Made by a program: the position numbers and the translations under genes. The notes beneath the pieces were generated by a model. The model was not told the DNA's origin. It did not search any database and saw nothing but the letters and a program-made list of their open reading frames with translations. A DNA stretch of 26,124 bases from NCBI GenBank assembly GCA_964396255.1, contig CAYNEP010000001.1, positions 1 to 26,124 of the forward strand. Direction: 5' to 3'. This DNA comes from an uncultured Gammaproteobacteria bacterium (lineage in GTDB: Bacteria; Patescibacteriota; Microgenomatia; UBA1406; HO2-37-13b). Shown piece after piece: positions 1 through 21,840 of the stretch. The first letter of the stretch is position 1; each line of letters begins with the position of its first letter.

Positions 1-1023
1 TTACCATATCAAACTCTTCACTGTCACACGACGACATCTGATGGCGACTTAACCTATGAGCAGGTATTAGATGAGTGTAAGAAAAATCACATTGGCGTTG
101 TTGCTTTTACTGACCATGATAGCTTGCCAACTGTTGAGAAGATTGAATCGCTTAAGTTACTGAACCACGATGTAAAATTTTTAACTGGAATTGAGATGTC
201 AGCGACAAACGTTGAGGAAGTTGCATCGCAGATTGAATTATTCCATGTCGTTGGGCTTTGTGTCGATCCAACTAACGAAAAATTATTAGCGTATTGTCAT
301 CGAGCATCTGAAAAAAGAAAGGAGCGTACAAAGAAAATCATCGAAAGTTGTAGAAAGTTAGGTTTTGCAATTACATACGAGGATGTCTTAAAGCATGTTA
401 CTGGATCAACTGTAGGACGACCCCATATTGCAAAAGCAATTCTAGCTGATGAGGCGAATTTGCAGGTTATTGCAAAAATTGAAGATAGTTTAAAAACTGA
501 AGCCAGCACAAGTGATGAGCTGAGTAAGCTTTATAACGAAGTCCTTCATCAAACTGTGTGGCAGAAGGTATTTAGTTTATTTTTAACAGATCATTCTTAT
601 ATCAAGGATGTGTACGTGCATTACGAAGATAAGGTTGATATGGATCATGCTGTTGAGTTGATACGGGGAGCTGGTGGCATTGCTTTGCTTGCACACTGGA
701 CATATTACAAAAAATTATTACCAATTGACCTTGTCGAAAAGTTTCTTCGTGATAAGAGAATAGATGGAGTTGAAACCGTATATGCATTTGGTGTGGGAGA
801 CGATCAGTATGGAGAGTTTGTTTCTGACATGCAACAGTTAGGGGCACTATGTGAGAAATATAGTGCTGCCAAAGGTGGAGGTGGAGATTTTCATAAAATT
901 GAAGACTTTGCTCTAATGTTAAATCAACGATTTGAGAGCTTCGCAAATAAGACACAGCATTTGTTTGATACGATAAAAGATCAGTTTTTAGATCTTAAGT
1001 ACACATATTCCTCGATTGACTAA
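1..1023 (+). CDS. PHP-domain metallohydrolase, YciV/TrpH (RNase AM / nucleoside 3',5'-bisphosphate phosphatase)-like; 5' end lies outside the window
   Basis: Frame 1 is open from base 1 and reads LPYQTLHCHTTTSDG...AFTDHDS, the PHP N-terminal motifs, upstream of the track's TTG at 124. Later motifs: GIEMS, FHVVG, GRPHIA, GGIALLAH, GGGDFH. Stop TAA 1021-1023. Confidence 0.88.
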   Translation, partial: LPYQTLHCHTTTSDGDLTYEQVLDECKKNHIGVVAFTDHDSLPTVEKIESLKLLNHDVKFLTGIEMSATNVEEVASQIELFHVVGLCVDPTNEKLLAYCHRASEKRKERTKKIIESCRKLGFAITYEDVLKHVTGSTVGRPHIAKAILADEANLQVIAKIEDSLKTEASTSDELSKLYNEVLHQTVWQKVFSLFLTDHSYIKDVYVHYEDKVDMDHAVELIRGAGGIALLAHWTYYKKLLPIDLVEKFLRDKRIDGVETVYAFGVGDDQYGEFVSDMQQLGALCEKYSAAKGGGGDFHKIEDFALMLNQRFESFANKTQHLFDTIKDQFLDLKYTYSSID

Positions 1024-1931
1024 AACAAATCAAGTTGTGATTTCTCTTTTGTTTGGGAGATGAGCTTGGGCGCACTGCCAAATATTCGATTGTGTAGGCT
1101 TTTGAAGTTGTATTTCTGAAAAAAGACTTTTAATCCATCATCATAGTGTTCAAAAGATGCATCATCAACTTTAAGCGGTAAGTCTGCTTTTATAATAAGC
1201 TGTGCAAGTTTTTTTGAAAGTTTTGCATCTTCAAATCCATCGATCAACTTCTTTTTCAAAGTTGGATTTTCTACCTCATCAATTCGTTTATACATACTCT
1301 CAATTGACCCAAACTGATTAATGAGTGCAGATGCTGTTTTGGGTCCAATCCCAACTATACCTTTATAGTTATCTGATGGATCGCCAGCAAGTGCTTTAAA
1401 GTCAACAACATGCTCTGGAGGTACGCCAAATTTTTCAATGACACCTTCTCTGTCGTACTTTTTTTCTTTGCCAAAACCTATTTGTGGTGTTATGACAAAT
1501 ATCTTGTCATTAACAAGCTGAAAGATGTCTTTGTCGCCAGTTAAAATATTAACAGTATACCCCTGATTATATGCCTCATGCGCAAGTACACCAATTAAAT
1601 CATCAGCTTCATATCCATCCATTTCTATTCGTTTAAGCCGTGCAGAGTCTAAGAATTCTTTAATAAGAGGAAACTGAGATATAAGTTGTTGATCGGTTTC
1701 TGGACGTTGAGTCCTGTAGTTGATAAATAACTCATCTCTATAAGTTGGTGCAGAAGTATCAAAACACGTAATAACATGTGTGGGTTTATAGTCAATAATA
1801 ACTTTATTAAGCGTTGAGACAAATCCATATACAGCACCTGTTGGAACTCCATCACGAGTTGTGAAATCTGGAAGTGCATGAAACGCGCGGTGTACAAGAC
1901 CATTACCATCGATCAAAAGCAGAGATTTCAT
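1020..1931 (-). CDS. Stand-alone 5'-3' exonuclease/flap endonuclease (Pol I N-terminal domain with H3TH), C-terminal QLDLF
   Basis: LLIDGNGLVHRAFHA, CFD, GYEADDLIG, TGDKD and GDPSDNYKGIVGIGPKTA (H3TH). It ends at 303 aa with no polymerase domain. Confidence 0.95.
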   Translation of the reverse strand: MKSLLLIDGNGLVHRAFHALPDFTTRDGVPTGAVYGFVSTLNKVIIDYKPTHVITCFDTSAPTYRDELFINYRTQRPETDQQLISQFPLIKEFLDSARLKRIEMDGYEADDLIGVLAHEAYNQGYTVNILTGDKDIFQLVNDKIFVITPQIGFGKEKKYDREGVIEKFGVPPEHVVDFKALAGDPSDNYKGIVGIGPKTASALINQFGSIESMYKRIDEVENPTLKKKLIDGFEDAKLSKKLAQLIIKADLPLKVDDASFEHYDDGLKVFFQKYNFKSLHNRIFGSAPKLISQTKEKSQLDLF

Positions 1932-1945: not shown

Positions 1946-3793
1946 CTATTTGACTGCGACCAATTTGAGGAATTCAACATCATCGAGGCTCTCTTTCTTT
2001 ATAAGCTCTTCAGCAACAGCATTGAGTTGTTTGCGATTTTTCTTAAGAATTTTTTTAGCTTCCTGATAACACTCATCAATTATTCTTTTAATTTCTATGT
2101 CGATTTTTAATCGAGTAGCGTCAGATTGAGATTCAGAACCGGGATAAGCACTTCCCCAATCTGTAATGTCCTGAGTAGGTCCATAATTGATCGGTCCTAG
2201 ATTGCTCATACCATAGTCAACAACCATGCCGCGTGCTATGCGGGTTGCCTGATCAAAATCATTCGACGCTCCAGTTGTGACCTCATTAAAGACGGTCTCT
2301 TCAGCAGCTCGTCCTCCCATCATAGAGGTTATCATCTGGATGAGATGAGTTCTAGTCTCGTGGAGCCTATCAGCTGCTGGTGGGATAAGTGTGTGGCCAA
2401 GAGAGAGTCCTCTTGAAACAATTGAAATACGATGAACGGGATCCATGTCTTTTTGGAAATATGTCACAATGGCGTGTCCTGCCTCATGATAGGCGGTAAT
2501 TTTTTTATCAAGGTCAGATTGTAGTCTTTTCCTCTCAGGACCAAGTTTTACCTTAGTTGCTGCCTCTTCTAAGTCTTCCATTGTGATCACCTGACGATCA
2601 GCTCGTGCTGCCATAATTGCAGCCTCATTGAGCATGTTCTCAATGTCGGCACCTGAGAATCCAACGGTCCTTTTTGCAATTTTGTCCCATTTTACTGTTT
2701 TATCCATTGGCTTACCTTTGGCATGGATTTTCAAAATTGCAGATCTTCCTTCAAGATCAGGGTAGTCAACAAGAACTCTCCTATCAAATCGTCCCGGTCG
2801 AAGCAGCGCAGAGTCGAGCAAATCCCCTCGATTTGTTGCTGCTATAAAAATAACTCGATCATTTGGCTCAAACCCATCCATTTCAACCAAAATTTGATTC
2901 AAAGTTTGTTCTCGTTCGTCATGTGCTGGCATTCCACCACCTGATCGAGATCGACCGATTGCATCAATCTCGTCTATAAAGATGATTGATGGAGCATTTT
3001 TTTTGGCTACCTTAAACAAATCTCGCGCACGAGCCGCTCCAATACCGACCAACATCTCCATAAATTCAGATCCGGCTATTGAAAAGAATGGTACATTTGA
3101 CTCCCCAGCAACTGCCTTTGCAAGAAGTGTTTTTCCTGTTCCTGCAGGTCCTACGAGTATGACTCCCTTTGGAGAACGTGCACCTAATTTATTGTATTTT
3201 TTTGGATTTTTCAAAAAATCTACTATCTCAGCGAGCTCTTTTTTTGCCTCATCAACACCAGCAACATCAGCAAAAGTGATGCGAGATATTTCTTTGTTAT
3301 ACAGTTTCGATCGAGATTGGCCAAATGAGAATATTGAGTCTTGGGTACCTCTTGCTTGTCGAAAAATGAATATGAAAAAACCTATCATAAGCAGTGTGGG
3401 AATAACATTTGCTAAGAAGCTTGCTACCATCGAGCCTGTGTCGGTGTTTTTAACGCCAATCTCCAAACTTGTTGGGTCAACTTTTGCGTCTTGAAGAATC
3501 TTAACAAAGCTCTCGCCCTCTTCTTTTGATGTGGTTAGAATTTTGTCTCCAGGGTAGTGAACTAAAACCTTATTACCTACAATTTCAATTTTCTTAACTT
3601 TTTTAGACTTAATATCAGCAATTACTTTGCTTATTGGTTGTTCGTTTGCAGACGATGCGAGATCAGTTAAAGAAATAAAAATCGATGCAGCAAATAGTAA
3701 GAGAAAAATTCCAACAAAAATTTGCTTAAAACCTATATTTATTTTAATTGGGGTTTTTTTATTTGTCTTTGAATCTTTCTTTAATGGCGCCAT
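1946..3793 (-). CDS. ftsH: ATP-dependent zinc metalloprotease FtsH
   Basis: Two TM segments, Walker A GPAGTGKT, Walker [38 protein letters not shown] zinc motif. Start taken as ATG 3793 (MAPLKK) because the track start at 3811 overlaps a -10 box. Confidence 0.97.
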
Positions 3794-3801
3794 AGAAGCT
3801 A

Positions 3802-3810
3802 ATTGTACCA
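3802..3810 (-). promoter_or_regulatory. Putative extended -10 promoter (TGgTACAAT) for ftsH
   Basis: Minus strand reads TGgTACAATtagcttctATG, with 8 nt to the ATG. Confidence 0.6.
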
Positions 3811-3860
3811 AATAATTTGATAAAATAGAAGGCTAGAGGTTAGTTTTCAAATACTGTCAA

Positions 3861-5520: not shown

Positions 5521-5874
5521 ATGAAAAATAAACTCTACGTGGGAAATCTTCCCTATTCAGTTGCCGACGATGGTCTTCGAGATCTATTTGCTCAATTTGG
5601 TGAAATCACCGAAGCACGAGTTATCGTCTTTAAAGACTCAGGTCGTTCAAGGGGATTTGGTTTTGTCGAATTTACCAATGATGACGATGCTCAAAAAGCT
5701 GTTGATGAGATGAACCAGAAGGAAGTCGAAGGTAGAAAGTTGGTTGTCAATATTGCACGACCAATGGAGCCTAGAGACAATAATGGTGGTGGAGATCGAG
5801 GTGGATATGGAAATCAAAATAATGATTTCGGAGGTTCAAATGACTCCAGCATGCAAAGTGATGATGTTATGTAA
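5521..5874 (+). CDS. Single-RRM RNA-binding protein with Gly/Asn-rich tail
   Basis: RNP2 LYVGNL, RNP1 RGFGFVEF, LVVNIARP, tail GGGDRGGYG; purine-rich RBS upstream (agaaagaggggtgagagaga). Confidence 0.95.
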   Translation: MKNKLYVGNLPYSVADDGLRDLFAQFGEITEARVIVFKDSGRSRGFGFVEFTNDDDAQKAVDEMNQKEVEGRKLVVNIARPMEPRDNNGGGDRGGYGNQNNDFGGSNDSSMQSDDVM

Positions 5875-5885
5875 TTTAGAGAATA

Positions 5886-6764
5886 ATGCCAATGGATCAA
5901 GCGCAGGATACATATAGTGCTGTATGGGTGTCGCACACCTCAATTCAGGATTTCACATCCTGTCCACGGGCATATTACATTAAAAATATCTACAAGGACC
6001 CTAAATCAGGTCGAAAGATAAAGCTCATGTCACCGCCACTCGCGCTTGGGTCTGCGGTGCATGAGGTGTTAGATATAATATCCGGCTTACCAAGAGAGTC
6101 TCGTTTCAATAACTCTTTAATTGATCTACTTGATGTATCATGGGAAAAAATAAAAGGTGAAAAGGGTGGATTCGTGAGTGATTCTCAGGAAGAACAATTT
6201 AAAAAAAGAGCACGCTCAATGCTTGAGAGGGTCACTGTTCATAAAGGTCCACTGTCTGGGCTAGCTGTTAAGATTAATATGGATCTCCCCCACTTTTGGC
6301 TATCTCAAAAGGACAATATCATTTTGTGTGGCAAGCTCGATTGGCTCGAGTACCTACCTGAGTCTGAGACAGTTCATATAATTGACTTCAAAACCGGCGC
6401 ATCATCTGAGGCAGTTGATTCTTTGCAACTTCCCATTTATTTTTTACTGGCTCAAAACTGTCAGAATCGACCAGTTGAGAAGGCAAGCTACTGGTATTTA
6501 GACAGGAGCGATGAGCCAGAGGAGCAGCCACTCCCCAATGCTGAGGTGAGTATGGAAAAGATTTTGAAAATTGCAAAAGAAATCAAGTTGGCAAGAAGTC
6601 TAGATAGGTTTAGGTGTCCTCATAACGGATGTCGCAACTGCAAGCCACTAGAAAGTATAGTCGAAGGTCAGGGGAAATATGTCGGTGTTGACGAATTTGG
6701 ACGTGACACATACATAGAACCTCAAGCCTCACAATCAACTGAGGATACGAGCGTCATTCATTAA
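5886..6764 (+). CDS. RecB-family PD-(D/E)XK nuclease, Cas4/AddB-like, with four Cys
   Basis: SCPRAYY, GSAVHEVL, GKLDW, IIDFKTG, LQLPIY (QxxxY), CPHNGCRNC. The start could also be ATG 5892. Confidence 0.85.
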   Translation: MPMDQAQDTYSAVWVSHTSIQDFTSCPRAYYIKNIYKDPKSGRKIKLMSPPLALGSAVHEVLDIISGLPRESRFNNSLIDLLDVSWEKIKGEKGGFVSDSQEEQFKKRARSMLERVTVHKGPLSGLAVKINMDLPHFWLSQKDNIILCGKLDWLEYLPESETVHIIDFKTGASSEAVDSLQLPIYFLLAQNCQNRPVEKASYWYLDRSDEPEEQPLPNAEVSMEKILKIAKEIKLARSLDRFRCPHNGCRNCKPLESIVEGQGKYVGVDEFGRDTYIEPQASQSTEDTSVIH

Positions 6765-10516: not shown

Positions 10517-10592
10517 TGGTGGCTGGGGGGAGGATCGAACTCCCGACCTCTCGCTTATGAAACGAATGCTCTAACCACTGAGCTACCCAGCC
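10517..10592 (-). tRNA. tRNA-Met(CAT), elongator type, CCA encoded
   Basis: 76 nt cloverleaf GGCTGGG TA GCTC AGTGGTTA GAGC A TTCGT TTCATAA GCGAG AGGTC GGGAG TTCGATC CTCCC CCCAGCC ACCA. G1-C72 excludes the initiator; G2-C71/C3-G70 and lack of C4-G69 favour Met over Ile2. Confidence 0.93.
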
Positions 10593-13237: not shown

Positions 13238-13267
13238 TTGTCTTGTCATTAGCGCGTGTGGTATTAT
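13238..13267 (+). promoter_or_regulatory. Putative promoter for the NUDIX gene (TTGTCT-18 nt-TATTAT with TG extension)
   Basis: TTGTCT 13238-13243, TG 13259-13260, TATTAT 13262-13267; ATG 13277 follows after 9 nt. Confidence 0.5.
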
Positions 13268-13276
13268 CGTGTTTAT

Positions 13277-13750
13277 ATGAATATAGTTGCAGACACTACC
13301 AAGCCATGTCCAACGTGCGGATTTTTTCCAAATAGGGGTCTTGGGATTGATGCCTTGATAGTTAGGGATAATAGAGTGGTTTTAATCAAGCGTGGCGGCG
13401 AACCATACAAGGGATACTGGGCATTACCTGGTGGTTGGGTTGATTGGAATATAACTATTGAGGATACTGTTGTGAAGGAGGTTAAGGAAGAAACTAATCT
13501 TGATGTTGTCTCAATGAAGCTCCTGGGCGTGTACGGTGACCCTGACAGACATCCAAGACAAGGCATGACAGCGGTGTATATTGTTGAGGCAAATGGGGAA
13601 TTAAAAGCAGGCGACGATGCTATTGAAGCTCATTTTTTTTCATTTGACCAGATCCCATCTCAATTGGGATTTGATCATGACAAGTTTATCGAAGTTTACA
13701 AAAACACTTATCAAATTTCTGCAGACTCAAGTCGGAGAGGCGGGACTTGA
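13277..13750 (+). CDS. NUDIX hydrolase (ADP-ribose pyrophosphatase-like)
   Basis: CPTCG, VVLIKRGGEPYKGYWALPGGWVD, KEVKEETNL, YGDPDRHPR, AGDDA, GFDH. Start taken at ATG 13277, since the track's GTG at 13256 lies in the promoter. Confidence 0.9.
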   Translation: MNIVADTTKPCPTCGFFPNRGLGIDALIVRDNRVVLIKRGGEPYKGYWALPGGWVDWNITIEDTVVKEVKEETNLDVVSMKLLGVYGDPDRHPRQGMTAVYIVEANGELKAGDDAIEAHFFSFDQIPSQLGFDHDKFIEVYKNTYQISADSSRRGGT

Positions 13751-13804
13751 ACCCGCGGCCTCCTCGTCCCAAACGAGGCGCGCTAGCCTCTGCGCCACTC
13801 TCCG
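13732..13804 (-). tRNA. tRNA-Pro(TGG), CCA not encoded
   Basis: CGGAGAG TG GCGC AGAGGCTA GCGC G CCTCG TTTGGGA CGAGG AGGCC GCGGG TTCAAGT CCCGC CTCTCCG A, followed by CTT. C1-G72 and A73 are typical of Pro. Confidence 0.94.
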
Positions 13805-13889: not shown

Positions 13890-14567
13890 ATGAACGAAGT
13901 TGAGCTCAAACAATCGTCACGTACAAGACTCTATAGTCGGCTTCTCAAGCGAGTTGTTGATATAATCCTTGCAGTTTCTCTTCTCCTTCTTTTTTCACCA
14001 ATTGCACTGATTGTTGCCATTGCTATTAAGCTAAACTCACCTGGTCCAATACTTGCAGACACACCAAAGCGTGTTGGATATAAAGGGGAGTTATTCAATT
14101 TTCATAAATTTAGATCCATGTTCGTTAATTCGCATTATATTTTGCGAACTGATGCAAGATTTAAAAAACTCTACGAAGAATATAAGAAGAATAGTTTTAA
14201 ACTTACGCAGGACCCAAGAATTACGTCTGTCGGAAAAGTCATTCGCAAGTACTCGCTTGACGAGCTACCTCAATTTATTAATGTCATCAGAGGAGAGATG
14301 AGTATCGTTGGTCCTCGAGCTTACTATCCTGACGAGCTTGAGGAACAACAAAAAAAATATCCTCAAACACGTCCAATGGTAAAGAAAGTACTTTCAGTAC
14401 GCCCAGGAATTACAGGCTTATGGCAAGTTTCGGGACGTTCAGAAGTTAATTTTGACAAACGTATTGCAATTGATGCATATTATGTCGACAATATATCTTT
14501 CATGCACGATGTTATAATAATACTAAAGACTCCTTGGGCAATGATATCTGCTAAGGGCGCTGTCTGA
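13890..14567 (+). CDS. Priming polyprenyl-phosphate sugar-1-phosphate transferase (Bac_transf; WcaJ/WbaP/CpsE C-terminal type)
   Basis: KRVVDI, one TM, KFRSM, DPRITSVGKVIRKYSLDELPQFINVIRGEMSIVGPR, RPGITGLWQVSGR. Confidence 0.95.
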   Translation: MNEVELKQSSRTRLYSRLLKRVVDIILAVSLLLLFSPIALIVAIAIKLNSPGPILADTPKRVGYKGELFNFHKFRSMFVNSHYILRTDARFKKLYEEYKKNSFKLTQDPRITSVGKVIRKYSLDELPQFINVIRGEMSIVGPRAYYPDELEEQQKKYPQTRPMVKKVLSVRPGITGLWQVSGRSEVNFDKRIAIDAYYVDNISFMHDVIIILKTPWAMISAKGAV

Positions 14568-14576
14568 CATATATAT

Positions 14577-16469
14577 ATGAAATTCTATAATCCAATGCGT
14601 AGGCGCAAATTGCATCATAGTAAGAAAGCAAATCATAGAAAGAAACTATTAGTTTTTATCTTTGCTATTCTTTTTCTTGGATATTTCCTCATATATCGTC
14701 CCGCTACACGAATAAAAGCGCAGGCCACGAAAACAAAAGTTGCAGCAGATAAAGTCAAGGCGGCATTTGTTCTAAATGATATAACCCTTGTTAATAAAGA
14801 GATGAAAGTGTTTGAGGGTGAGTTTACTCAGTTACAAAAGGAATCAGAGACAATATATTGGATGAGATTTATTCCAATTCTTGGAGGCTATGTCGGTGAT
14901 TATCGTCATGGAATAGAAGCGGGAGACGCACTCATTGACGCAGGGAAGCAAGCAATTGCCGCAATAGAGCCACACGCAGATCTGATTGGTTTTAAAAAAG
15001 GTGAGGGATCATTTGCGCAAAAACCAGCTGAGGACAGAATTCAAACTGCTGTTCTTGCTCTGGACACCATAGTTGCAGATACCGATGAGATAGCTGTTAA
15101 GGTTGATGTAGCCCGGGAGCACATAGATAAGATTAATGTAAACAGATATCCAAATAATTTCGGCGGGAGGCCAATTAGACCACGAATTCAACAACTTGTC
15201 GATGCTTTCGATGGTGTCGCGACACTTTTTGTTGAGGCAAAACCGCTTATCAAAAAATTACCTGAGATTATGGGTACTCGTGAAGAGAAAACCTATATAG
15301 TGTTATTTCAAAATGATAAAGAGCTTCGCGCAACAGGAGGGTTCTTAACAGCATACGCAATTTTCAAGATTGATAAAGGTAAGTTTAAGGTTCAAGAGTC
15401 TAAAGATATTTATTCGCTTGACGACTCAATTCGCAATCATCCAGTTGGGCCTAAGGAAATTCTCACTTTTCATAAGGGTGTTTCAAAGTTTTATATAAGA
15501 GATAGTAATTTATCTCCAGATGTTCCAACGTCCGTTAAGCTATTTGAGTCGCTATATCAAAATAGTAGCGCCAAGCTTGATTATGACGGTATTATTTATG
15601 TGGATACACACGTGTTGGTTGCGACGCTTAAAATCCTTGGAGATACAGAGGTGAGAGGAACTCGGTTCTCAGCTGAAGAGGATAAGCGTTGTGACTGCCC
15701 ACAGGTCATCTATAAGCTTTTGGATGAAATTGATAGACCTGTACAATACATTAAAACCGATAGAAAAGGAATATTAGGTGATCTTTTATATGCACTTATG
15801 CAAAAGGCACTTGGGTTTTCCCCATCTCAATACTGGGGACCTCTCTCTCAAGAGTTATTGAGAGATCTGGATGAAAAACATATTCAGGTTTATCTTAAAG
15901 ATGAATCCGCACAAAAAGCCATTGAGACTATTGGGTATGGTGGAAGAATTAGGCCATATGATGGTGATTATTTACATATAAATGATGTTAATTTTGCAGG
16001 TGCTAAGTCAAATTTGTTTGTGACACAGTCTGTCACGAGCAAAACTACTATTAACAACGATAAAACAGTCGACAGGGAAGTTGTTATAGAATATAGAAAT
16101 CCATACCCTCCTTCAAATTGCAATCTTGAGGCTGGACAGCTATGTATTAACGCCGTTCTTCGCAACTGGCTAAGAGTTTATACCCCAAAAGGTTCTAAGT
16201 TAATCCAGTTTTCTGGATCTGAGAAGAAGGCCCGATCATATGATGAGCTTGAGAAGACTGTATTTGAGGGATTCTTAAGAGTGTCACCAATGGGAAAGTC
16301 GATAGTTACTATCAAGTACAGGCTGCCATTTAACGTTGAAAGTGATGATGATTACAAGCTTTTTATTCAGAAACAAGGAGGAACAGAAGGTAACAAATAT
16401 ACAATCTTGGTAAATGACAAAAAAACCGAGACAAATCTAACTAAAGACTACGAGTTGAAGCTTCAATAA
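14577..16469 (+). CDS. DUF4012-domain membrane-anchored extracytoplasmic protein
   Basis: Basic N-terminus plus TM; YIVLFQNDKELRATGGF, RDSNLSPD, DGIIYVD, WLRVYTPKGS, IQKQGG. Confidence 0.82.
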   Translation: MKFYNPMRRRKLHHSKKANHRKKLLVFIFAILFLGYFLIYRPATRIKAQATKTKVAADKVKAAFVLNDITLVNKEMKVFEGEFTQLQKESETIYWMRFIPILGGYVGDYRHGIEAGDALIDAGKQAIAAIEPHADLIGFKKGEGSFAQKPAEDRIQTAVLALDTIVADTDEIAVKVDVAREHIDKINVNRYPNNFGGRPIRPRIQQLVDAFDGVATLFVEAKPLIKKLPEIMGTREEKTYIVLFQNDKELRATGGFLTAYAIFKIDKGKFKVQESKDIYSLDDSIRNHPVGPKEILTFHKGVSKFYIRDSNLSPDVPTSVKLFESLYQNSSAKLDYDGIIYVDTHVLVATLKILGDTEVRGTRFSAEEDKRCDCPQVIYKLLDEIDRPVQYIKTDRKGILGDLLYALMQKALGFSPSQYWGPLSQELLRDLDEKHIQVYLKDESAQKAIETIGYGGRIRPYDGDYLHINDVNFAGAKSNLFVTQSVTSKTTINNDKTVDREVVIEYRNPYPPSNCNLEAGQLCINAVLRNWLRVYTPKGSKLIQFSGSEKKARSYDELEKTVFEGFLRVSPMGKSIVTIKYRLPFNVESDDDYKLFIQKQGGTEGNKYTILVNDKKTETNLTKDYELKLQ

Positions 16470-16475
16470 TTTACA

Positions 16476-17015
16476 ATGCGCCATTCATTAAACGATGAGG
16501 GCTTAGTTTTGAAAAAAATAATACTTGGCGAGCGAGACGTCCTCTTGACTCTTCTCTCCAAAACTCAGGGGAAATTAATAGTAAGAGCTTATGGGGTTAA
16601 AAAAATAACTAGTCGACGCATCTCACACCTTGAGACTGGAAATTATATTAAGTTCTCGCTAACTAAAACAGGTAGTCGACTAGCTCTTGGTGAGACAGAG
16701 CTTATGTGGGGATATTCACTTATTAAAAGTTCAAAACATAAAATGGAACTTCTCTATTTGCTCTTCATAATATTGAATAAAATTCTACCGGAAGAGCATA
16801 ATGAGCAGATGACATTTGATCTTGTCATTTCATATCTTAAGGAATTGAATAACAACAAGGTTGTAGCACCAGATGGGCTTGACGTAACACTAAAATCATT
16901 ACTTATGTCACTTGGGTATATCGATCAAAAAACAGCAAGTCTTCCTTTATTTAATCCAGTCACATTTGTCGAGGAGATGACGAATCAAAAAGTTCAAAAG
17001 TCATACCTTAAGTAA
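16476..17015 (+). CDS. recO: DNA repair protein RecO (short form)
   Basis: EGLVLKK..LGERDVLLTLLSKTQGKL...AYGVKKITSRRISHLE (RecO OB fold) followed by a short helical region; 179 aa. Confidence 0.85.
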   Translation: MRHSLNDEGLVLKKIILGERDVLLTLLSKTQGKLIVRAYGVKKITSRRISHLETGNYIKFSLTKTGSRLALGETELMWGYSLIKSSKHKMELLYLLFIILNKILPEEHNEQMTFDLVISYLKELNNNKVVAPDGLDVTLKSLLMSLGYIDQKTASLPLFNPVTFVEEMTNQKVQKSYLK

Positions 17016-18096
17016 GCTTTTCAAGATCTGTATCCTTGAGGGATTCAACAAGAGTTTTAATTTTTGATACACTTGTTTTTTTGGTCACAAGTAATACATC
17101 TGGGGTATTAACTATCAGGAAATCATTTAGATCAATGCCAACTATTGTTTTTTCATCTTCGTGATTGAAAACGAGCGTATCTTGTGAATCTTTAAGGTGT
17201 ACGTTACCACGAGTTACATTGGCAGTTTTAGAATCTTGCAAAGCCTCCTTAAGTTGCTCCCATGCACCAACATCGCTCCAACCAAAATCAGATGAAATTA
17301 CAATTGCATCGTTTGGATCAACGTGCTCTATAACGGCATTATCAAAGTGAATTTTCTCAAGCGTTGGGTAAATTTCCTGTAATACACTTTCATATGATGG
17401 TGTATCAATTGCATCATAAATTATTTTGAGTTGTCGAAATAATTTTGGGGCATGAATCTCAAACAATTTCCATAAATATGTTGATGTTACTAAAAAGTAT
17501 CCTGGATTCCAGACGTGCTTGCCAGTTGCAAAATAGCTATTTGCTGTTTCGGGATCAGGTCGATATTTCCATCCTTTAAACTTGTAGAAAGGAATATCTG
17601 AGTTCGTTTCAATTTGGCTACCAATCTTGATCCATCCTAAATTAGTTGAGGCAAATCTTGGTTGTTGGCCGAAAAATACAATTTTATTTGGATTTTCCTT
17701 TATATAAGCCTCTCCAGCGTAGAGCATGGCACGAAACTTAACCTCATCCTTTACAAGGTGGTCACTGCCCCAAAGTATTGCTATGGGTTCGTCTTTGAAC
17801 TTTTTAGCAAATAGTGCCGCCACAAGTCCAACTGCAGGTCCGACGTCGCGCATGACAGGTTCTAGAATTAAATGAGATTCCTTTAAATCTGGCACTTGAT
17901 CTATAAGATCGTTCTTATAGTCAGCACCAGTTGAGACGTAGATATCATCAAAAGAAAACTCTGGAACAAGACGATCAATTGCTAGCTGAAACATGGTCTT
18001 TTGGTGAATATAGCTTCTGAATTGTTTAGGCGATTTGCTCCTTGAGAGCGGCCAAAGACGAGTGCCTGTTCCTCCTACAAAAATTACTGCTTTCAT
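17008..18096 (-). CDS. manC: Mannose-1-phosphate guanylyltransferase-like nucleotidyltransferase (monofunctional, no cupin/PMI domain)
   Basis: GGTGTRLWPLSRSKSPKQF, EPVMRDVGPA, SDH, WNPG, WSDVGAW, C-terminal beta-helix. Confidence 0.85.
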   Translation of the reverse strand: MKAVIFVGGTGTRLWPLSRSKSPKQFRSYIHQKTMFQLAIDRLVPEFSFDDIYVSTGADYKNDLIDQVPDLKESHLILEPVMRDVGPAVGLVAALFAKKFKDEPIAILWGSDHLVKDEVKFRAMLYAGEAYIKENPNKIVFFGQQPRFASTNLGWIKIGSQIETNSDIPFYKFKGWKYRPDPETANSYFATGKHVWNPGYFLVTSTYLWKLFEIHAPKLFRQLKIIYDAIDTPSYESVLQEIYPTLEKIHFDNAVIEHVDPNDAIVISSDFGWSDVGAWEQLKEALQDSKTANVTRGNVHLKDSQDTLVFNHEDEKTIVGIDLNDFLIVNTPDVLLVTKKTSVSKIKTLVESLKDTDLEKLT

Positions 18097-18102
18097 ACCG
18101 AT

Positions 18103-19197
18103 TTATTTTGTAATTGTTTGGAACCTATTTATAAATAATGATAAGGAAAATTTGGAGAGGTGAGCCGATGTGTACTTTTTCATATTATCCTGAAAAGTGT
18201 ATGCAATTGTATCGAACTTTTCAATCGCAGATTTTATAGATTTTAGGCTGTTGTCCTCAACTAAAATACCTGTTTTATTGTCTAAGACTGTCTCAATTGC
18301 TCCACCCTTTTTATAAGCAATAACTGGGCAGTTGAAAAACTGAGACTCGAGAGAGGTATATCCAAAGTCTTCTTCCTGCATCATTATTGTTGCTCTTGCA
18401 GTTTGATAATATTTTGATAATTCTTCATCAGTGATGAATTTTTTAAAAAAAATATTTGATCCAGCCAAGCTCTTGAGTTTTTCCTCTTGGCTTCCAGTTC
18501 CAACAATCAGAAGTGTGTTTTTATACAGCCTATTAAAGGTTCGAATAATTGGCTCGATATTCTTATATGGCTCGAGTCGTGAAACAACAAGATAAAATGA
18601 TTCTCTTTTAAGTTTTTTGTTGCTATATCTACTCCAATAGTCTGTATCAAATGGTGGATAAACAACATCGCCGTCAAGATCATAATATTTATTTAGCCGT
18701 TTTTTTATTTCATTTGAGATTACAAAATAGCGATCGGGTCTTTTGGATGCTATTCTATCCCAGCGTTTTAGGTAATTAATATAGGGACCAGCAAAAATGT
18801 TTAAGAAGCCAAGGCTGCGGCGTGTTTTTGTCTCGTGCCATAGATAGCGAGTTGGTGTTAGTAGGTAGCAGACGTGAAGTGTTTCTGGCCTAGTTATAAC
18901 GGCCTTGGCAAAAGATGAAGTAATACTTATAACTATATCGTACCCCTTAAAGTCAAATGATTCAAATGCATATGGGTAAAAAGGTGAAGAGAGAATTCTG
19001 TTTGTTTTGATAAATTTAGGAAAGTTTTGCATAAACGATTGTTTGATTTTAAGATTTTTTGCCCATGGTGCTTTTTCTTCATCATAGTATGAAGTAAAAA
19101 ACTGGGCATTCGGGTATTCTCTAAAAAGTGTTAAAAGTATTCTTTCAACACCACCCCATTTATCAATCCAATCATAGATAATTGCAATTTTCTTCAT
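18103..19197 (-). CDS. GT4 glycosyltransferase (WbaZ-like, probable mannosyltransferase)
   Basis: IAIIYDW..WGGVER, VSRLEPYK, EDFGYTSLE. Confidence 0.88.
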   Translation of the reverse strand: MKKIAIIYDWIDKWGGVERILLTLFREYPNAQFFTSYYDEEKAPWAKNLKIKQSFMQNFPKFIKTNRILSSPFYPYAFESFDFKGYDIVISITSSFAKAVITRPETLHVCYLLTPTRYLWHETKTRRSLGFLNIFAGPYINYLKRWDRIASKRPDRYFVISNEIKKRLNKYYDLDGDVVYPPFDTDYWSRYSNKKLKRESFYLVVSRLEPYKNIEPIIRTFNRLYKNTLLIVGTGSQEEKLKSLAGSNIFFKKFITDEELSKYYQTARATIMMQEEDFGYTSLESQFFNCPVIAYKKGGAIETVLDNKTGILVEDNSLKSIKSAIEKFDTIAYTFQDNMKKYTSAHLSKFSLSLFINRFQTITK

Positions 19198-19198
19198 G

Positions 19199-20323
19199 TT
19201 AATTCAGTATCATTTTATAAATGCCATACGTCGTGTTTCCCATCGCTCCAAATGAAAACTGATTAATTACTGAACTATTAATACATTCTGCGTCAGAACG
19301 AATCGGGTTATTTTCTAAAAATTTACCAATTGTATCTTTCATCGATAGAGTCTCCATAGGATCAAAAAAATATTGATACTTGTTGCCAACTAGCTCTTTA
19401 AACACAGGAATGTCTGACAAGATAACCGGGCATTTAAAATGATTAGCCTCAATAATAGGAAGACCAAATCCTTCAGTTAATGATGGTTGAACGAGTGCTA
19501 GTGCATTTTTATAGAAAAACACTCGGTCTTCAAGTGTTGCGTTAAAGTGGAAAAGAATTGACCTATTATTCTCAACAGCCTGTGCTAGCTCAACAATCCT
19601 GGATGCAAAAAAATCTTTTGGACCGGCAAGAACGAGTTTTACATTTGTATCAAGCATGCTAAATGCGCTAATTAGTCTCTCAATATTTTTATGGGGGTAA
19701 AAGTTTCCTAGGCGAACTATAAATGGGTCTTTATAAATACTTTTCAATGTATTATTCGATTTGCTGGTAAGAAGACCTTCATCCACACCTTCGTATGTGA
19801 CTGTTATCTTTTGTTTATTTGTCTGTTTAAAGCGTTTTAATATTTGGTCACAAACTGCTTTACTTGGAGTTATGATATGGGCAGCCTTGCTTATGCCCCA
19901 ATAGAGAAGAAACTTATATGCGTTGTATTTAAATTCATATGCAAGAGGATGTAGTGTTGTTGCTTGTCCGGTTTTAAAGTCAAGAGGCGTAAGATCGTGT
20001 ATCGTAAGAACGAATGGTCGGGTATAGAGAATAGGATAACTAAAGTAAGTAAAATGCATGAGGTCAAGATTGTATTTTGAAATAGTTTTAAAGAATGATA
20101 CTTGTTCGTTAAAACTGTGCCATCGAGCATAAGTCTCGACAATAGTAACGTTTGAGAGAGATATACTTTTGGCTATTACCTTTCTGCCATTTGAGTCTGT
20201 AAAAAGATACAATTCAAATTGATTCTTTTCGAGTGGCAAATTTCGCAATAAATTTTGAATATAAATACCAACTCCGGTCTCATTAATAAGTCGACAGTCA
20301 ATTCCAATTCGTTTCTTTTGCAT
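19199..20323 (-). CDS. GT4 glycosyltransferase
   Basis: IGIDCR..TGVGIY, TIHDL, GNFYPHKN, EGFGLPIIEA. Confidence 0.9.
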   Translation of the reverse strand: MQKKRIGIDCRLINETGVGIYIQNLLRNLPLEKNQFELYLFTDSNGRKVIAKSISLSNVTIVETYARWHSFNEQVSFFKTISKYNLDLMHFTYFSYPILYTRPFVLTIHDLTPLDFKTGQATTLHPLAYEFKYNAYKFLLYWGISKAAHIITPSKAVCDQILKRFKQTNKQKITVTYEGVDEGLLTSKSNNTLKSIYKDPFIVRLGNFYPHKNIERLISAFSMLDTNVKLVLAGPKDFFASRIVELAQAVENNRSILFHFNATLEDRVFFYKNALALVQPSLTEGFGLPIIEANHFKCPVILSDIPVFKELVGNKYQYFFDPMETLSMKDTIGKFLENNPIRSDAECINSSVINQFSFGAMGNTTYGIYKMILN

Positions 20324-20327
20324 GGAA

Positions 20328-21221
20328 TTATAATTTGGCTTTTAAATCAATGAGAAAATAGATAAGGGAGTTGACAAAATTGGGATAATTTTTCGCGTAA
20401 TGTTTCTTGTAAAAAATCTTCATAGCGTTGTAAAAATGATATCGAGTTTTAGTCTGTGTTTCTTTAGTTGATTTGAGTCCACTCTGATGTTTTAGATGAA
20501 GTATGACAAATTCGGGATAATAAATCACTTTCAAGTCTCTCTCTTTAATTCTATATGCTAAGTCAATATCCTCTCCATACATAAAGAAGTTCGTATCAAA
20601 TCCGTGCAAGGTTTTATAGAGTGCAGTTGGCATTAGGAAAAAGGCACCCGCAGGACAGTCAATTTCGTGTATATGTGAAAGGTTCATGTGTGTTAAATGA
20701 TAGCCACCAAAAATTCGATTGAGAGGAGTTTGGGCAGTTAGTCTTTCTAACCCGCTAAAAAAGCAAAACGATCGCCAAATTGTTGGGAAGCCTCTATGAG
20801 AAGCTGGATCTATTGCTCCATGTGGAAATCGAACCTTAACAGTGAGCAGACCAACGTCTTGGTTCAATTCGATATACTCTATAAGTGATGAAAAGTTTAC
20901 ATTCTCAATTAATGTGTCGCTATTAAGTAATAGCGTGTAAGAGTACTTGGCTCTTTTTACTCCTTGGTTGTTGGCAGCGCCAAATCCAATATTCTTTTTA
21001 TTACTGATTAGATATATTGGAACCTGAGACCTCTTAATATATGATTTTATCGAAGATGTAGACGTGTCAACCGATGCGTTATCAACAACAATTATCTCGC
21101 TTTTAAGTTTTTGATCCCGAGACAGGGCGTAGTTTAGAGATTTTAGACAATCAAGAGTTAATCTCTCTGTGTTATAAGAAATTATTATTACGGATAAACC
21201 TTTTTGAAGATTATTATTCAT
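20328..21221 (-). CDS. GT2 glycosyltransferase (WbbL-like)
   Basis: LSVIIISYN, VVDNAS, NIGFGAANN, LLLNSD, FMYGEDIDL. Start set to ATG 21221 to avoid a 62-nt overlap with the upstream gene. Confidence 0.9.
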   Translation of the reverse strand: MNNNLQKGLSVIIISYNTERLTLDCLKSLNYALSRDQKLKSEIIVVDNASVDTSTSSIKSYIKRSQVPIYLISNKKNIGFGAANNQGVKRAKYSYTLLLNSDTLIENVNFSSLIEYIELNQDVGLLTVKVRFPHGAIDPASHRGFPTIWRSFCFFSGLERLTAQTPLNRIFGGYHLTHMNLSHIHEIDCPAGAFFLMPTALYKTLHGFDTNFFMYGEDIDLAYRIKERDLKVIYYPEFVILHLKHQSGLKSTKETQTKTRYHFYNAMKIFYKKHYAKNYPNFVNSLIYFLIDLKAKL

Positions 21222-21234
21222 ACGTGAAGTTGTG

Positions 21235-21840
21235 TTATCTAAACCATGCTGCTCGACCAAGTCTATAGTTAGGTTCTTTATTTTGTCTGCTGCCAATCAC
21301 TTTAGCGGGTACACCTCCGACAATCGTGTATTGGTCAACGTCCTTTGTAACTACTGCCCCAGCGGCTATGATTGCTCCAGTTCCAATAGTTATTCCAGGT
21401 AGAATAATTACGCGCGGTCCAATAAATACATAGTCGCCTATAATGACATCCTGTTTTACTACCTCTTCAATTGCAGCAAAGTGAACGCTTTCTGTATTGT
21501 GCTGACTGTTATAGATCATGACACCACTTGCAATATCTACATGATTGCCAATCGTAAGATCGGCCCTTCCATCAAGCGTAACAAACTCACCAATTATGCT
21601 ATCTTTGCCTATTACAATGTTGTGAGGATTATAAAATCGCGCGTACATGTGAATGGTTGATCCATTTCCAATTTTCATACCAGCAATTCTGTAAAAAAAT
21701 CGTCTTACGTGATGAATTGGAAAGGCTCCAATGCAGTGTAATATGTATACCTCAAGCTCCATAATAATTGAATAGAGTCTAAAGAACCCTCTATTAATAA
21801 GTTCCAAAAACGTTAATGTTTTGCCTGTTTTATCTTTCAT
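21235..21840 (-). CDS. Hexapeptide-repeat (left-handed beta-helix) sugar O-acetyltransferase
   Basis: IGNGSTI/IGKDSII/IGNHVDI repeats and IGTGAIIAAGAVVTKDV...GGVPAK. Confidence 0.9.
   Translation of the reverse strand: MKDKTGKTLTFLELINRGFFRLYSIIMELEVYILHCIGAFPIHHVRRFFYRIAGMKIGNGSTIHMYARFYNPHNIVIGKDSIIGEFVTLDGRADLTIGNHVDIASGVMIYNSQHNTESVHFAAIEEVVKQDVIIGDYVFIGPRVIILPGITIGTGAIIAAGAVVTKDVDQYTIVGGVPAKVIGSRQNKEPNYRLGRAAWFR

What the first reader, a model, noticed from the sequence alone, without database searches (positions are those of the whole stretch)
1020..1931. Stand-alone flap endonuclease ending in a perfect beta-clamp motif (QLDLF): a possible bacterial FEN1-PCNA analogue
Seen: an intact Pol I-type 5'-3' exonuclease with the acidic active-site motifs and H3TH, no polymerase domain, and a low-structure tail ending SQLDLF-stop (motif at 1023-1037). 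Established: QL[S/D]LF is the bacterial sliding-clamp binding consensus, often at C-termini (e.g. DinB). Archaeal and eukaryotic FEN1 use a PIP box to load on PCNA, whereas Pol I normally delivers its nuclease by covalent fusion. Inference: Pol I is split in this lineage, and the freed nuclease is recruited to Okazaki-fragment junctions through DnaN.
Basis: partly seen in the sequence, partly recalled or inferred. Interest (0 to 1): 0.75.

Follow-up and report, generated by a model that had tools for sequence, protein, structure and literature searches.

The report
Flap endonuclease with sliding-clamp tail
A tiny uncultured bacterium (Microgenomates) has a stand-alone DNA flap-cutting enzyme whose floppy tail ends in the five-residue tag that bacterial proteins use to hook onto the DNA sliding clamp; the tag is kept in nearly all relatives, which suggests these bacteria trim lagging-strand primers on the clamp, much as eukaryotic FEN1 does on PCNA.

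Summary
ORF 1020-1931 (-) encodes a 303-aa Pol I-type 5' nuclease (FEN) with an intact active site and no polymerase domain. Its disordered 19-residue tail ends in QLDLF-stop.

The motif is under selection. Q-x-x-[LMI]-F lies at or next to the C-terminus in 117 of the 120 closest homologues. A looser form, Q-x-x-[LMIF]-[FLIVM], is found in 70 of 71 stand-alone FENs from metagenome loci. The K/E-rich linker before it is not conserved.

The same motif is invariant (Q and F) in the only disordered linker of full-length Pol I of the sister lineage Dojkabacteria, directly after the FEN domain. That gene also sits downstream of ftsH, as in the window. The window gene therefore looks like a polA that kept FEN, linker and clamp motif and lost the rest.

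"Pol I is split" is not shown. No polymerase gene lies within 10 kb in any stand-alone locus, and the apparent splits I found were a frameshift or an assembly gap. Whether a polymerase exists elsewhere in the genome is untested.

Clamp binding is inferred, not demonstrated, because no DnaN sequence was available. I found no report of a clamp motif on a bacterial FEN. I rate this a new variant of a known kind, of moderately high interest.

The parts
1020..1931 (-). Gene for a stand-alone Pol I-type 5'-3' exonuclease / flap endonuclease, 303 aa plus a TAG stop at 1020-1022.
1080..1931 (-). Folded FEN domain, residues 1-284: a PIN-like N-terminal domain plus H3TH, with nine invariant acidic active-site residues.
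   Evidence: Pfam. Invariant D8, D58, E108, D110, D111, D133, D135, D184 and D187. AF2 pLDDT is high through residue 284. TM-scores of 0.72-0.82 to solved FENs.
1038..1079 (-). Flexible linker, residues 285-298 (GSAPKLISQTKEKS). It is not conserved and is K/E-rich across the family.
   Evidence: pLDDT is below 50 at residues 288-296. The alignment shows no majority residue in these columns. Linker composition is K 27%, E 13%.
1023..1037 (-). C-terminal pentapeptide QLDLF (residues 299-303), a candidate beta-clamp (DnaN) binding motif.
   Evidence: Sequence. Q299 and F303 are invariant in 55 sequences. Present in 117/120 close homologues, 70/71 metagenome loci in the loose form and 39/49 short representatives.
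1946..3811 (-). ftsH, directly upstream on the same strand with a 14-nt gap, so probably co-transcribed. It is a conserved synteny partner that marks the ancestral polA position.
   Evidence: Pfam. FtsH lies directly upstream of the FEN in 31 of 45 metagenome loci that have enough upstream sequence and in L001 and L008. In Dojkabacteria ftsH is followed by full-length polA: L005 (its 614-aa upstream ORF is identified as ftsH by position only) and L006, where Pfam confirms FtsH.

Best explanation
The gene encodes an active flap endonuclease / 5'-3' exonuclease that removes RNA primers and 5' flaps. Its 19-residue disordered tail ends in a canonical beta-clamp-binding pentapeptide, QLDLF; the family consensus is [D/N]-Q-[L/I/M]-G-L-F-COOH.

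The most likely mechanism is that the tail inserts into the hydrophobic cleft of a DnaN protomer left on the lagging strand. This would tether the nuclease at primer-template junctions so that it cuts flaps raised by the polymerase bound to the other protomer. That is a functional analogue of FEN1 on PCNA.

In evolutionary terms the gene is best read as a polA shortened from its 3' end. It sits in the ancestral polA position after ftsH. It ends just after a clamp motif that full-length Pol I of the sister lineage Dojkabacteria carries in its FEN-to-exo linker.

Shown: enzyme family, intact active site, disordered tail, motif conservation, the shared motif position in full-length Pol I, and synteny. 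Inferred: clamp binding, the role in Okazaki-fragment maturation, and the direction of evolution.
For: Enzyme:
- Family, fold and active site are established.

Motif conservation:
- 117/120 closest homologues (46-76% identity) carry Q-x-x-[LMI]-F, 112 of them at the exact C-terminus, and only one strict motif occurs elsewhere in those 120 proteins.
- Q299 and F303 are invariant in alignment A2, while the 14 columns before them have no consensus.
- 70/71 complete stand-alone FEN ORFs from an independent metagenome scan end in Q-x-x-[LMIF]-[FLIVM].
- 39/49 short representatives at 50% identity carry the motif.

Consensus:
- The family consensus QLGLF equals the C-terminal clamp motif quoted for E. 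coli Pol II, and the window's QLDLF matches Dalrymple's QL[SD]LF (both quoted in bioRxiv 10.64898/2026.09.19.751633).

Full-length relatives:
- 20 Dojkabacteria-type Pol I sequences (40-64% identical) have invariant Q304 and F308 in an otherwise unconserved linker 17-40 residues after the FEN domain.
- In the AF2 model of one of them (P0285), residues 299-317 are the only stretch of three or more residues with pLDDT below 50, and the motif sits at 304-308.
- 14 of 70 full-length Pol I representatives carry Q..[LMI]F in the 60-aa post-FEN linker, a 13-fold enrichment per residue (Fisher p = 2.5e-10). One of them is from candidate division CPR3.

Synteny:
- ftsH-FEN in the window, L001, L008 and 31/45 loci, against ftsH-polA in Dojkabacteria.
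Against: - No DnaN sequence from this lineage was available: none is in the window or in 0.9 Mb of fetched loci. Neither the binding pocket nor a complex model could be examined, and nothing was measured.
- Short linear motifs are prone to false positives.
- In E. coli the clamp was reported not to bind Pol I or to act in Okazaki maturation (bioRxiv 10.1101/2022.08.02.502465).
- Some family members have P or T at motif position 2, or L/I/V instead of F at the last position. These may be weaker binders.
- Deep nodes of the FEN-domain tree are unsupported, so the sister relation to Dojkabacteria Pol I rests on the motif position and synteny, not on phylogeny.
- A large Microgenomates group (Daviesbacteria-type, ~720-aa FEN-Pol) lacks the motif, so clamp tethering is not universal in the class.
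Confidence: 0.72

Rival explanations
1. Split Pol I. The lineage carries the polymerase/Klenow part as a separate gene elsewhere in the genome. FEN and polymerase cooperate in trans, and the clamp motif compensates for the lost covalent link.
For: - The FEN is closer to Pol I N-domains than to the ExoIX/FenA paralogues.
- Architectures with a solo 5'-3' exonuclease plus a 'PolA1-like' polymerase lacking that domain are known in other bacteria (PMC12926913).
- The whole genome was not searched, so a distant polymerase gene cannot be excluded.
Against: - No polymerase-domain hit appears in any of the 71 stand-alone FEN loci, 26 of which have at least 5 kb on both sides.
- No polymerase gene lies in the 24 kb of window upstream of the FEN gene, or within 10 kb downstream in the 76%-identical relative L008.
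- The polymerase-only hits whose contigs were examined were contig-end fragments, a frameshift or an assembly gap; several others begin without a start codon.
- None of the long contigs carrying FEN-CBM (741, 679, 506 and 496 kb) has the same length as any contig in the two top-120 polymerase lists. This is weak evidence, because only 120 hits per list are shown.
Confidence: 0.3
2. Polymerase module lost. The lineage has no Pol I polymerase at all, as in many Mollicutes. The clamp-tethered FEN works with Pol III (DnaE) on the same DnaN ring, which would be a eukaryote-like Pol delta / FEN1 / PCNA arrangement.
For: - The absence evidence is the same as listed against the split reading.
- 109 of 3070 complete bacterial genomes have only a solo 5'-3' exonuclease; their mean genome size is 1.48 Mb and GC 34% (PMC12926913). 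Patescibacteria have even smaller genomes.
- The gene occupies the old polA slot after ftsH.
- In a Daviesbacteria genome with fused FEN-Pol, no FEN-CBM follows ftsH. This suggests the two are alternative reductions of a single ancestral gene.
Against: This is negative evidence from 20-kb neighbourhoods only, and no whole genome was examined. Other Microgenomates keep a polymerase.
Confidence: 0.4
3. The C-terminal Q-x-x-L-F is not a clamp motif. It could instead be a C-terminal degron (for example for the co-transcribed FtsH or another protease), or a docking peptide for another partner such as a ligase, RNase H or SSB.
For: - ftsH lies directly upstream in most loci.
- Hydrophobic C-termini can act as protease tags (my own general knowledge, not tested here).
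Against: - The same motif is conserved at an internal position in Dojkabacteria Pol I, followed by variable residues. A strictly C-terminal degron would not be conserved there.
- The invariant positions (Q at 1, L/M at 4, F at 5) are the ones that define the clamp consensus.
- The ftsH linkage is equally present for full-length polA and is explained by ancestry.
Confidence: 0.08
4. Artefact. The ORF is a fragment of a full-length polA cut by a frameshift, assembly error or pseudogenisation, and the terminal motif is simply the linker motif exposed by truncation.
For: Such pseudo-splits do exist: L006 has a frameshift 70 codons after QLGMF, and L007 has a run of N.
Against: - In the window the stop codon follows the motif directly, and a convergent PHP-family gene overlaps it by 4 nt, so no polymerase-coding DNA follows.
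- Most of the 71 independent loci also stop at or within three residues of the motif.
- 112/120 homologues end exactly at the F.
Confidence: 0.02

Closest known systems
Eukaryotic and archaeal FEN1 with a C-terminal PIP box bound to PCNA
   Same: A stand-alone flap endonuclease of the same superfamily (Foldseek hits to human and archaeal FEN1, TM about 0.5-0.6). It carries a short clamp-docking peptide, beginning with Q and ending in aromatic or hydrophobic residues, at the end of a flexible C-terminal tail.
   Different: The motif here is the bacterial pentapeptide Q-x-x-L-F, not the PIP box QxxLxxFF, and the target would be the DnaN dimer, not the PCNA trimer. The enzyme is a Pol I-type bacterial FEN (37-39% identical to the Taq Pol I N-domain) and only 15-16% identical to FEN1. 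This is analogy or convergence, not orthology of the tethering device.
C-terminal clamp-binding motifs of E. coli Pol II (QLGLF), Pol V UmuC (QLNLF) and Pol IV (QLVLGL)
   Same: The pentapeptide consensus is identical: the family consensus here is QLGLF and the window has QLDLF. It is likewise placed at or near the C-terminus on a flexible segment (for the quoted motifs).
   Different: Those carriers are polymerases, whereas this one is a nuclease with no polymerase activity.
Clamp motifs recently described in family-A polymerases: actinobacterial PolA2 (QSSLF, PMC12926913) and Mycobacteriales Pol I (QLSLLDD between the 3'-5' exo and pol domains, bioRxiv 10.64898/2026.09.19.751633)
   Same: These are family-A polymerase relatives with a Q-x-x-L-F/L peptide in a disordered loop.
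   Different: Those motifs lie in or after the 3'-5' exonuclease domain and serve the polymerase. They are reported as restricted to Actinobacteria or Mycobacteriales. Here the motif directly follows the 5' nuclease domain and occurs in Patescibacteria, both on stand-alone FENs and in the linker of Dojkabacteria/CPR3 Pol I.
Stand-alone bacterial FENs: B. subtilis FenA (YpcP/ExoR), M. smegmatis FenA, E. coli ExoIX/Xni, and the solo 5'-3' exonucleases of Mollicutes and Verrucomicrobia
   Same: The fold and catalytic core are shared (TM 0.74-0.82). They have the same presumed job in primer and flap removal, and FEN can be the only Pol I-derived function kept in small genomes (PMC12926913; PMC10191290).
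   Different: No clamp motif or clamp interaction is mentioned for these proteins in the papers I read. The window protein is closer to Pol I N-domains (2.6e-57) than to FenA (1e-24) or Xni (4e-22), and it carries the conserved tail.

Membership tests
Bacterial Pol I-type 5'-3' exonuclease / flap endonuclease (PF02739 + PF01367) | N-terminal PIN/resolvase-like nuclease domain and a C-terminal H3TH (SAM-fold) domain | tested here: met
   PF02739 at 3.4e-54 (residues 4-169) and PF01367 at 5.3e-29 (residues 170-264), both far above the gathering scores.
Bacterial Pol I-type 5'-3' exonuclease / flap endonuclease (PF02739 + PF01367) | Conserved acidic metal-binding residues of the active site | tested here: met
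   D8, D58, E108, D110, D111, D133, D135, D184 and D187 are invariant in 55 family members. They align with the acidic residues of the Taq Pol I 5' nuclease.
Bacterial Pol I-type 5'-3' exonuclease / flap endonuclease (PF02739 + PF01367) | FEN three-dimensional fold | tested here: met
   AF2 mean pLDDT 90.3 and pTM 0.86. Foldseek TM-scores of 0.72-0.82 to FenA, ExoIX, Pol1 and Taq.
Bacterial Pol I-type 5'-3' exonuclease / flap endonuclease (PF02739 + PF01367) | Structure-specific 5' flap / 5'-3' exonuclease activity | not testable with these tools
   This needs an enzyme assay.
Beta-clamp (DnaN) client proteins with a canonical clamp-binding motif | Peptide matching Q-[aliphatic]-x-[L/M]-[F/L] (Dalrymple consensus QL[SD]LF) | tested here: met
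   QLDLF at residues 299-303. The consensus is quoted.
Beta-clamp (DnaN) client proteins with a canonical clamp-binding motif | Motif lies in an exposed, disordered segment or terminus | tested here: met
   The motif is at the extreme C-terminus of a low-confidence tail that starts after residue 284, with pLDDT below 50 at residues 288-296.
Beta-clamp (DnaN) client proteins with a canonical clamp-binding motif | Motif conserved among orthologues while its flanks vary | tested here: met
   117/120 close homologues, 70/71 metagenome loci (loose form) and 39/49 short representatives carry it. Q and F are invariant and the linker is unconserved.
Beta-clamp (DnaN) client proteins with a canonical clamp-binding motif | Physical binding to the hydrophobic cleft of the cognate DnaN | not testable with these tools
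Split Pol I (solo 5'-3' exonuclease plus a separate polymerase-only polA) | The FEN is of Pol I type rather than an ExoIX/FenA paralogue | tested here: met
   Pol I models and Taq are the best hits. Full-length Pol I proteins sit among the nearest representatives at 40-45% identity.
Split Pol I (solo 5'-3' exonuclease plus a separate polymerase-only polA) | A polymerase-only family-A gene in the same genome | tested here: inconclusive
   None lies within 10 kb in the 71 loci, in the window or in L008. Whole genomes could not be searched. The apparent splits are a frameshift and an assembly gap.
FEN1 / PIP-box clients of PCNA | PIP box Qxx[LIM]xx[FY][FY] and a PCNA-type clamp | tested here: not met
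   The tail ends at Q-L-D-L-F with no further aromatic pair. The organism is a bacterium whose clamp is presumably DnaN, so this is a functional analogy only.

The most novel reading that the evidence does not exclude
In a large part of the Patescibacteria, Okazaki-fragment maturation is centred on the clamp, as in eukaryotes and archaea. A FEN tethered to DnaN by a C-terminal Q-x-x-L-F works alongside the replicative polymerase, with no Pol I polymerase in the cell. The device would be inherited from an ancestral Pol I that already carried a clamp motif next to its 5' nuclease domain, as still seen in Dojkabacteria and CPR3. That would overturn the working view that Pol I orthologues (PolA1) have no clamp-binding motif and that the bacterial clamp plays no part in primer removal.
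Probability: 0.35. Interest if true: 0.8.

Novelty: new variant of a known kind. Interest (0 to 1): 0.62.

Why it matters
Textbook bacterial primer removal relies on Pol I delivering its 5' nuclease by covalent fusion. Recent work on E. coli argues that the clamp is not involved, and a 2026 survey of bacterial polymerases knew of no clamp motif in Pol I orthologues.

A clade-wide, strictly conserved clamp motif attached to the 5' nuclease would show that bacteria have also evolved the FEN-on-a-clamp solution. The motif occurs both at the C-terminus of stand-alone FENs and in the linker of full-length Pol I in neighbouring lineages.

It gives a directly testable system: peptide-DnaN binding, and flap-cleavage stimulation on clamp-loaded DNA. 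It may explain how genome-reduced bacteria can dispense with the Pol I polymerase. It also adds a client to the beta-clamp interactome.

Finally, it warns annotators that these ~300-aa proteins labelled 'DNA polymerase I' are nucleases.

Tried and rejected
1. The single genome-contig scan, run with the Dojkabacteria polymerase domain as a lone query, returned only the query's own locus.

2. Polymerase-only hits were followed up as possible split partners. None is a clean split:
- P0334 is cut by a contig end.
- P0365 follows another ORF that is itself cut by the contig end.
- P0302 follows 1.5 kb with no called gene.
- P0416 (L006) is a Dojka-type polA with a frameshift.
- P0426 (L007) is a polA broken by a run of N.

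3. A tblastn with E. coli DnaN (sequence written from memory) against all fetched loci and the window found nothing. The cognate clamp pocket therefore could not be checked.

4. I looked for clamp motifs on the ATP-dependent DNA ligases next to polA in Dojka-type loci. None is at either terminus.

5. The neighbour-joining tree of FEN domains gave these supports: the stand-alone core clade 72%, the Daviesbacteria type 100%, and the Dojka type 86-96%. All deep nodes are below 10%, so the tree does not settle which full-length group is sister.

6. Cluster look-ups for organism names mostly returned none. The taxonomic breadth of the ~296-aa subfamily and of the GC-richer tails stays unknown.

7. 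The ~910-aa Pol I genes caught in the metagenome scan have an intact 3'-5' exo motif and no linker motif, so they are ordinary Pol I.

8. The supplement of PMC12926913 includes only two Saccharibacteria genomes, no Microgenomates, and the relevant sheets are cut.
Full report
**Observation.** The minus-strand ORF 1020..1931 is intact: 303 aa, ATG start, TAG stop at 1020-1022. Pfam finds the two domains of a bacterial 5'-3' exonuclease / flap endonuclease (PF02739, 3.4e-54; PF01367, 5.3e-29) and nothing else. NCBIfam scores it best against the first ~290 positions of the DNA polymerase I models (1e-93), ahead of the stand-alone exonuclease and Xni models. Among solved structures the best match is the 5' nuclease domain of Taq Pol I, residues 14-294 (2.6e-57). 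M. smegmatis FenA (1e-24) and E. coli ExoIX (4e-22) are much weaker.

Nine acidic active-site residues are invariant in 55 family members. An AlphaFold2 model has mean pLDDT 90.3; it is confident for residues 1-284 and unconfident for the tail, below 50 at residues 288-296. The model superposes on bacterial FENs with TM 0.72-0.82. So the gene encodes an intact Pol I-type FEN with no polymerase domain and a 19-residue flexible tail ending in a perfect match to the clamp-binding consensus.

**Is the motif more than chance?** Q..[LMI]F occurs about once per 950 residues in the window's proteins. All of the 120 closest homologues (46-76% identical) are 295-324 aa stand-alone FENs, and those with names come from Microgenomates or Roizmanbacteria.
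- 117 of these 120 carry Q-x-x-[LMI]-F in the last 15 residues, 112 of them at the exact C-terminus. Only one strict motif occurs anywhere else in those 120 proteins.
- The family consensus is [D/N]-Q-[L/I/M]-G-L-F-COOH. The preceding linker is K/E-rich and has no conserved column, while Q299 and F303 are invariant.
- In an exhaustive search of 50%-identity representatives, 39 of 49 short proteins (345 aa or less) end in the motif.
- In an independent scan of JGI metagenome contigs, 70 of 71 complete stand-alone FEN ORFs end in Q-x-x-[LMIF]-[FLIVM].

**Where the motif comes from.** Among the nearest representatives were full-length Pol I proteins with a Q-x-x-[LM]-F right after the FEN domain. 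Two of these are named Candidatus Dojkabacteria and one candidate division CPR3; both are Patescibacteria. All 16 Dojkabacteria-type full-length Pol I proteins I inspected have the motif 17-40 residues after the end of the FEN domain. In an alignment of 20 of them (40-64% identical), Q304 and F308 are invariant inside an otherwise unconserved linker. In the AlphaFold2 model of one of them (P0285, 892 aa), residues 299-317 are the only stretch of three or more residues with pLDDT below 50, and the motif sits at 304-308. Across 70 full-length Pol I representatives, Q..[LMI]F is 13-fold enriched per residue in the 60-aa post-FEN linker (14 proteins; Fisher p = 2.5e-10).

Synteny links the two forms. 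In the window, in a 76%-identical relative (L008), in L001 and in 31 of 45 informative metagenome loci, the FEN gene directly follows ftsH on the same strand. In Dojkabacteria, full-length polA follows ftsH: in L006 FtsH is confirmed by Pfam, and in L005 the upstream 614-aa ORF occupies the same position. The simplest reading is that the window gene is a polA that kept the nuclease, the linker and the clamp motif and ends there. The motif was not acquired after the nuclease became free. A neighbour-joining tree neither contradicts nor proves this, because its deep nodes are unsupported.

- The window has no polA or dnaN.
- The gene downstream of the FEN is a convergent PHP-family gene that overlaps it by 4 nt. 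In L008 that gene is followed by secA and serS, with no polymerase within 10 kb.
- None of the 71 stand-alone FEN loci has a polymerase-domain hit, and 26 of them have at least 5 kb on both sides.
- A profile search with Patescibacteria polymerase domains found two things instead. The first is a large group of ~700-745-aa FEN-Pol fusions without a 3'-5' exo domain, several named Candidatus Daviesbacteria (Microgenomates). These lack the linker motif. In one such genome the fusion gene lies 5 kb from ftsH, and no FEN-CBM gene follows ftsH.
- The second is a set of polymerase-only hits. Those whose contigs I examined are fragments, a frameshifted polA (L006) or a polA broken by an assembly gap (L007).

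So at least three reductions of polA exist among these lineages, and I saw no genuine two-gene split. Whether the window's genome keeps a polymerase elsewhere is untested. Loss, as in many Mollicutes (PMC12926913), is at least as likely.

**Mechanism.**
- Shown: the enzyme family, the intact active site, the disordered tail, the conserved canonical pentapeptide, and the same peptide in the same place in full-length relatives.
- Inferred: the tail docks into the hydrophobic cleft of a DnaN protomer left at the 3' end of each Okazaki fragment. This would concentrate the nuclease at primer junctions. The second protomer stays free for the gap-filling polymerase, which would be Pol III if Pol I is absent, or a separate polymerase if one exists. 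Flaps raised by strand displacement would then be cut in place, and a ligase would seal the nick.

This works like FEN1 on PCNA, but the tethering peptide and the clamp are the bacterial ones, so it is an analogue and not a member of the PIP-box system.

**Alternatives.** A C-terminal degron or another partner peptide is unlikely, because the motif is equally conserved at an internal position in Dojkabacteria Pol I. A truncation artefact is excluded by the convergent overlapping neighbour and by about 70 independent loci that stop at the motif.

**Comparison with the literature I could search.**
- A 2026 survey of bacterial polymerases describes solo 5'-3' exonucleases and 'PolA1-like' polymerases. 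It calls actinobacterial PolA2 the first bacterial family-A polymerase with an identified clamp motif. It reports no motif on solo FENs or on Pol I orthologues, and its genome set has no Microgenomates (PMC12926913).
- A 2026 preprint finds a clamp motif (QLSLLDD) in Mycobacteriales Pol I, but it lies between the 3'-5' exo and polymerase domains.
- Work on E. coli concluded that the clamp does not bind Pol I or act in Okazaki maturation.
- Papers and a 2026 review on B. subtilis FenA/ExoR mention no clamp link.
- Full-text searches combining flap endonuclease, clamp-binding motif and Patescibacteria found nothing closer.

The library lacks most subscription journals, so prior description cannot be excluded.

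**Verdict.** The feature is a new variant of known kinds: a known enzyme and a known docking motif in a combination that appears not to have been described. There is also an unexpected extension, the motif being a conserved feature of the post-FEN linker of Pol I in neighbouring CPR lineages. Clamp binding is well motivated but unproven. The split-Pol I claim should be replaced by '3'-shortened polA; polymerase status unknown'. Interest 0.62.

Noticed in passing
window 1-1023 (+): A PHP-family (PF02811 in its L008 orthologue) phosphoesterase gene runs off the window start; its first residues read ...LHCHTTTSDGD. It converges on the FEN gene and overlaps its stop by 4 nt. The arrangement is conserved in the 76%-identical relative L008. 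Pfam did not recognise the in-window part. Its function, and any link to the FEN, is unknown.
   Followed up: partly
P0439, P0440, P0483, P0497 and about 90 others; locus L009 10001-12091: A large Microgenomates group (several named Candidatus Daviesbacteria) has a ~700-745-aa Pol I made of the FEN domain fused directly to the polymerase domain. It has no 3'-5' exonuclease region and no clamp motif in the linker.
   Followed up: partly
L006 6763-9419; L007 6974-9605: Two MAG contigs show FEN and polymerase as separate called genes. One is a frameshift about 70 codons after the QLGMF motif, and the other is a run of N. Surveys that count 'solo FEN' or 'split Pol I' from gene calls alone would be misled by such cases.
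   Followed up: yes
L005 5986-7851; L006 9863-11656; L007 10037-11884; L002 3728-5512: In Dojkabacteria-type loci polA is followed by a small gene (an HTH_DeoR family protein in L002, L006 and L007) and then an ORF of about 600 aa. In L006 and L007 that ORF is a three-domain ATP-dependent DNA ligase (PF04675/PF01068/PF04679), giving an ftsH-polA-x-ligase cluster. In L005 and L002 the ligase identity rests on synteny and end-sequence similarity only. No terminal clamp motif was seen on any of the four.
   Followed up: partly
P0122 (754 aa; its cluster also holds a 1246-aa member, P0276): This protein has two matched FEN stretches; a second FEN domain starts right after the first. It is among the closest representatives to the window FEN. 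It may be a tandem FEN architecture, or a gene-call fusion.
   Followed up: no
L031, L039, L043, L047, L053-L055, L060, L062, L065, L074 and others: A distinct subfamily of 296-310-aa stand-alone FENs has a very short tail of the form TLTxRVKxVGKxxxxEKQxxL[F/L/I]. The last residue is often L or I instead of F. Its taxon is unknown.
   Followed up: no
window 5521-5874 (+) and 5886-6764 (+): A 117-aa RRM_1 (eukaryote-type RNA recognition motif) protein is followed by a PD-(D/E)XK nuclease. The pair is conserved in L008.
   Followed up: no
window 16476-17015 (+): A 179-aa protein matches only the N-terminal domain of RecO (PF11967, 1.7e-10). It may be a shortened RecO.
   Followed up: no
window 17008-25266 (-): A run of eight co-oriented genes: a sugar nucleotidyltransferase, six glycosyltransferases (five GT4-type and one GT2-type) and a hexapeptide acyltransferase. 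A Bac_transf priming transferase and a DUF4012 protein lie at 13890-16469 (+). Together these look like a cell-envelope polysaccharide locus.
   Followed up: no
window 10517-10592 (-) and 13731-13804 (-): tRNA-Met (CAT) and tRNA-Pro (TGG). The tRNA-Pro overlaps the last 20 nt of the NUDIX ORF (13256-13750, +), so that ORF's 3' end may be overcalled.
   Followed up: no
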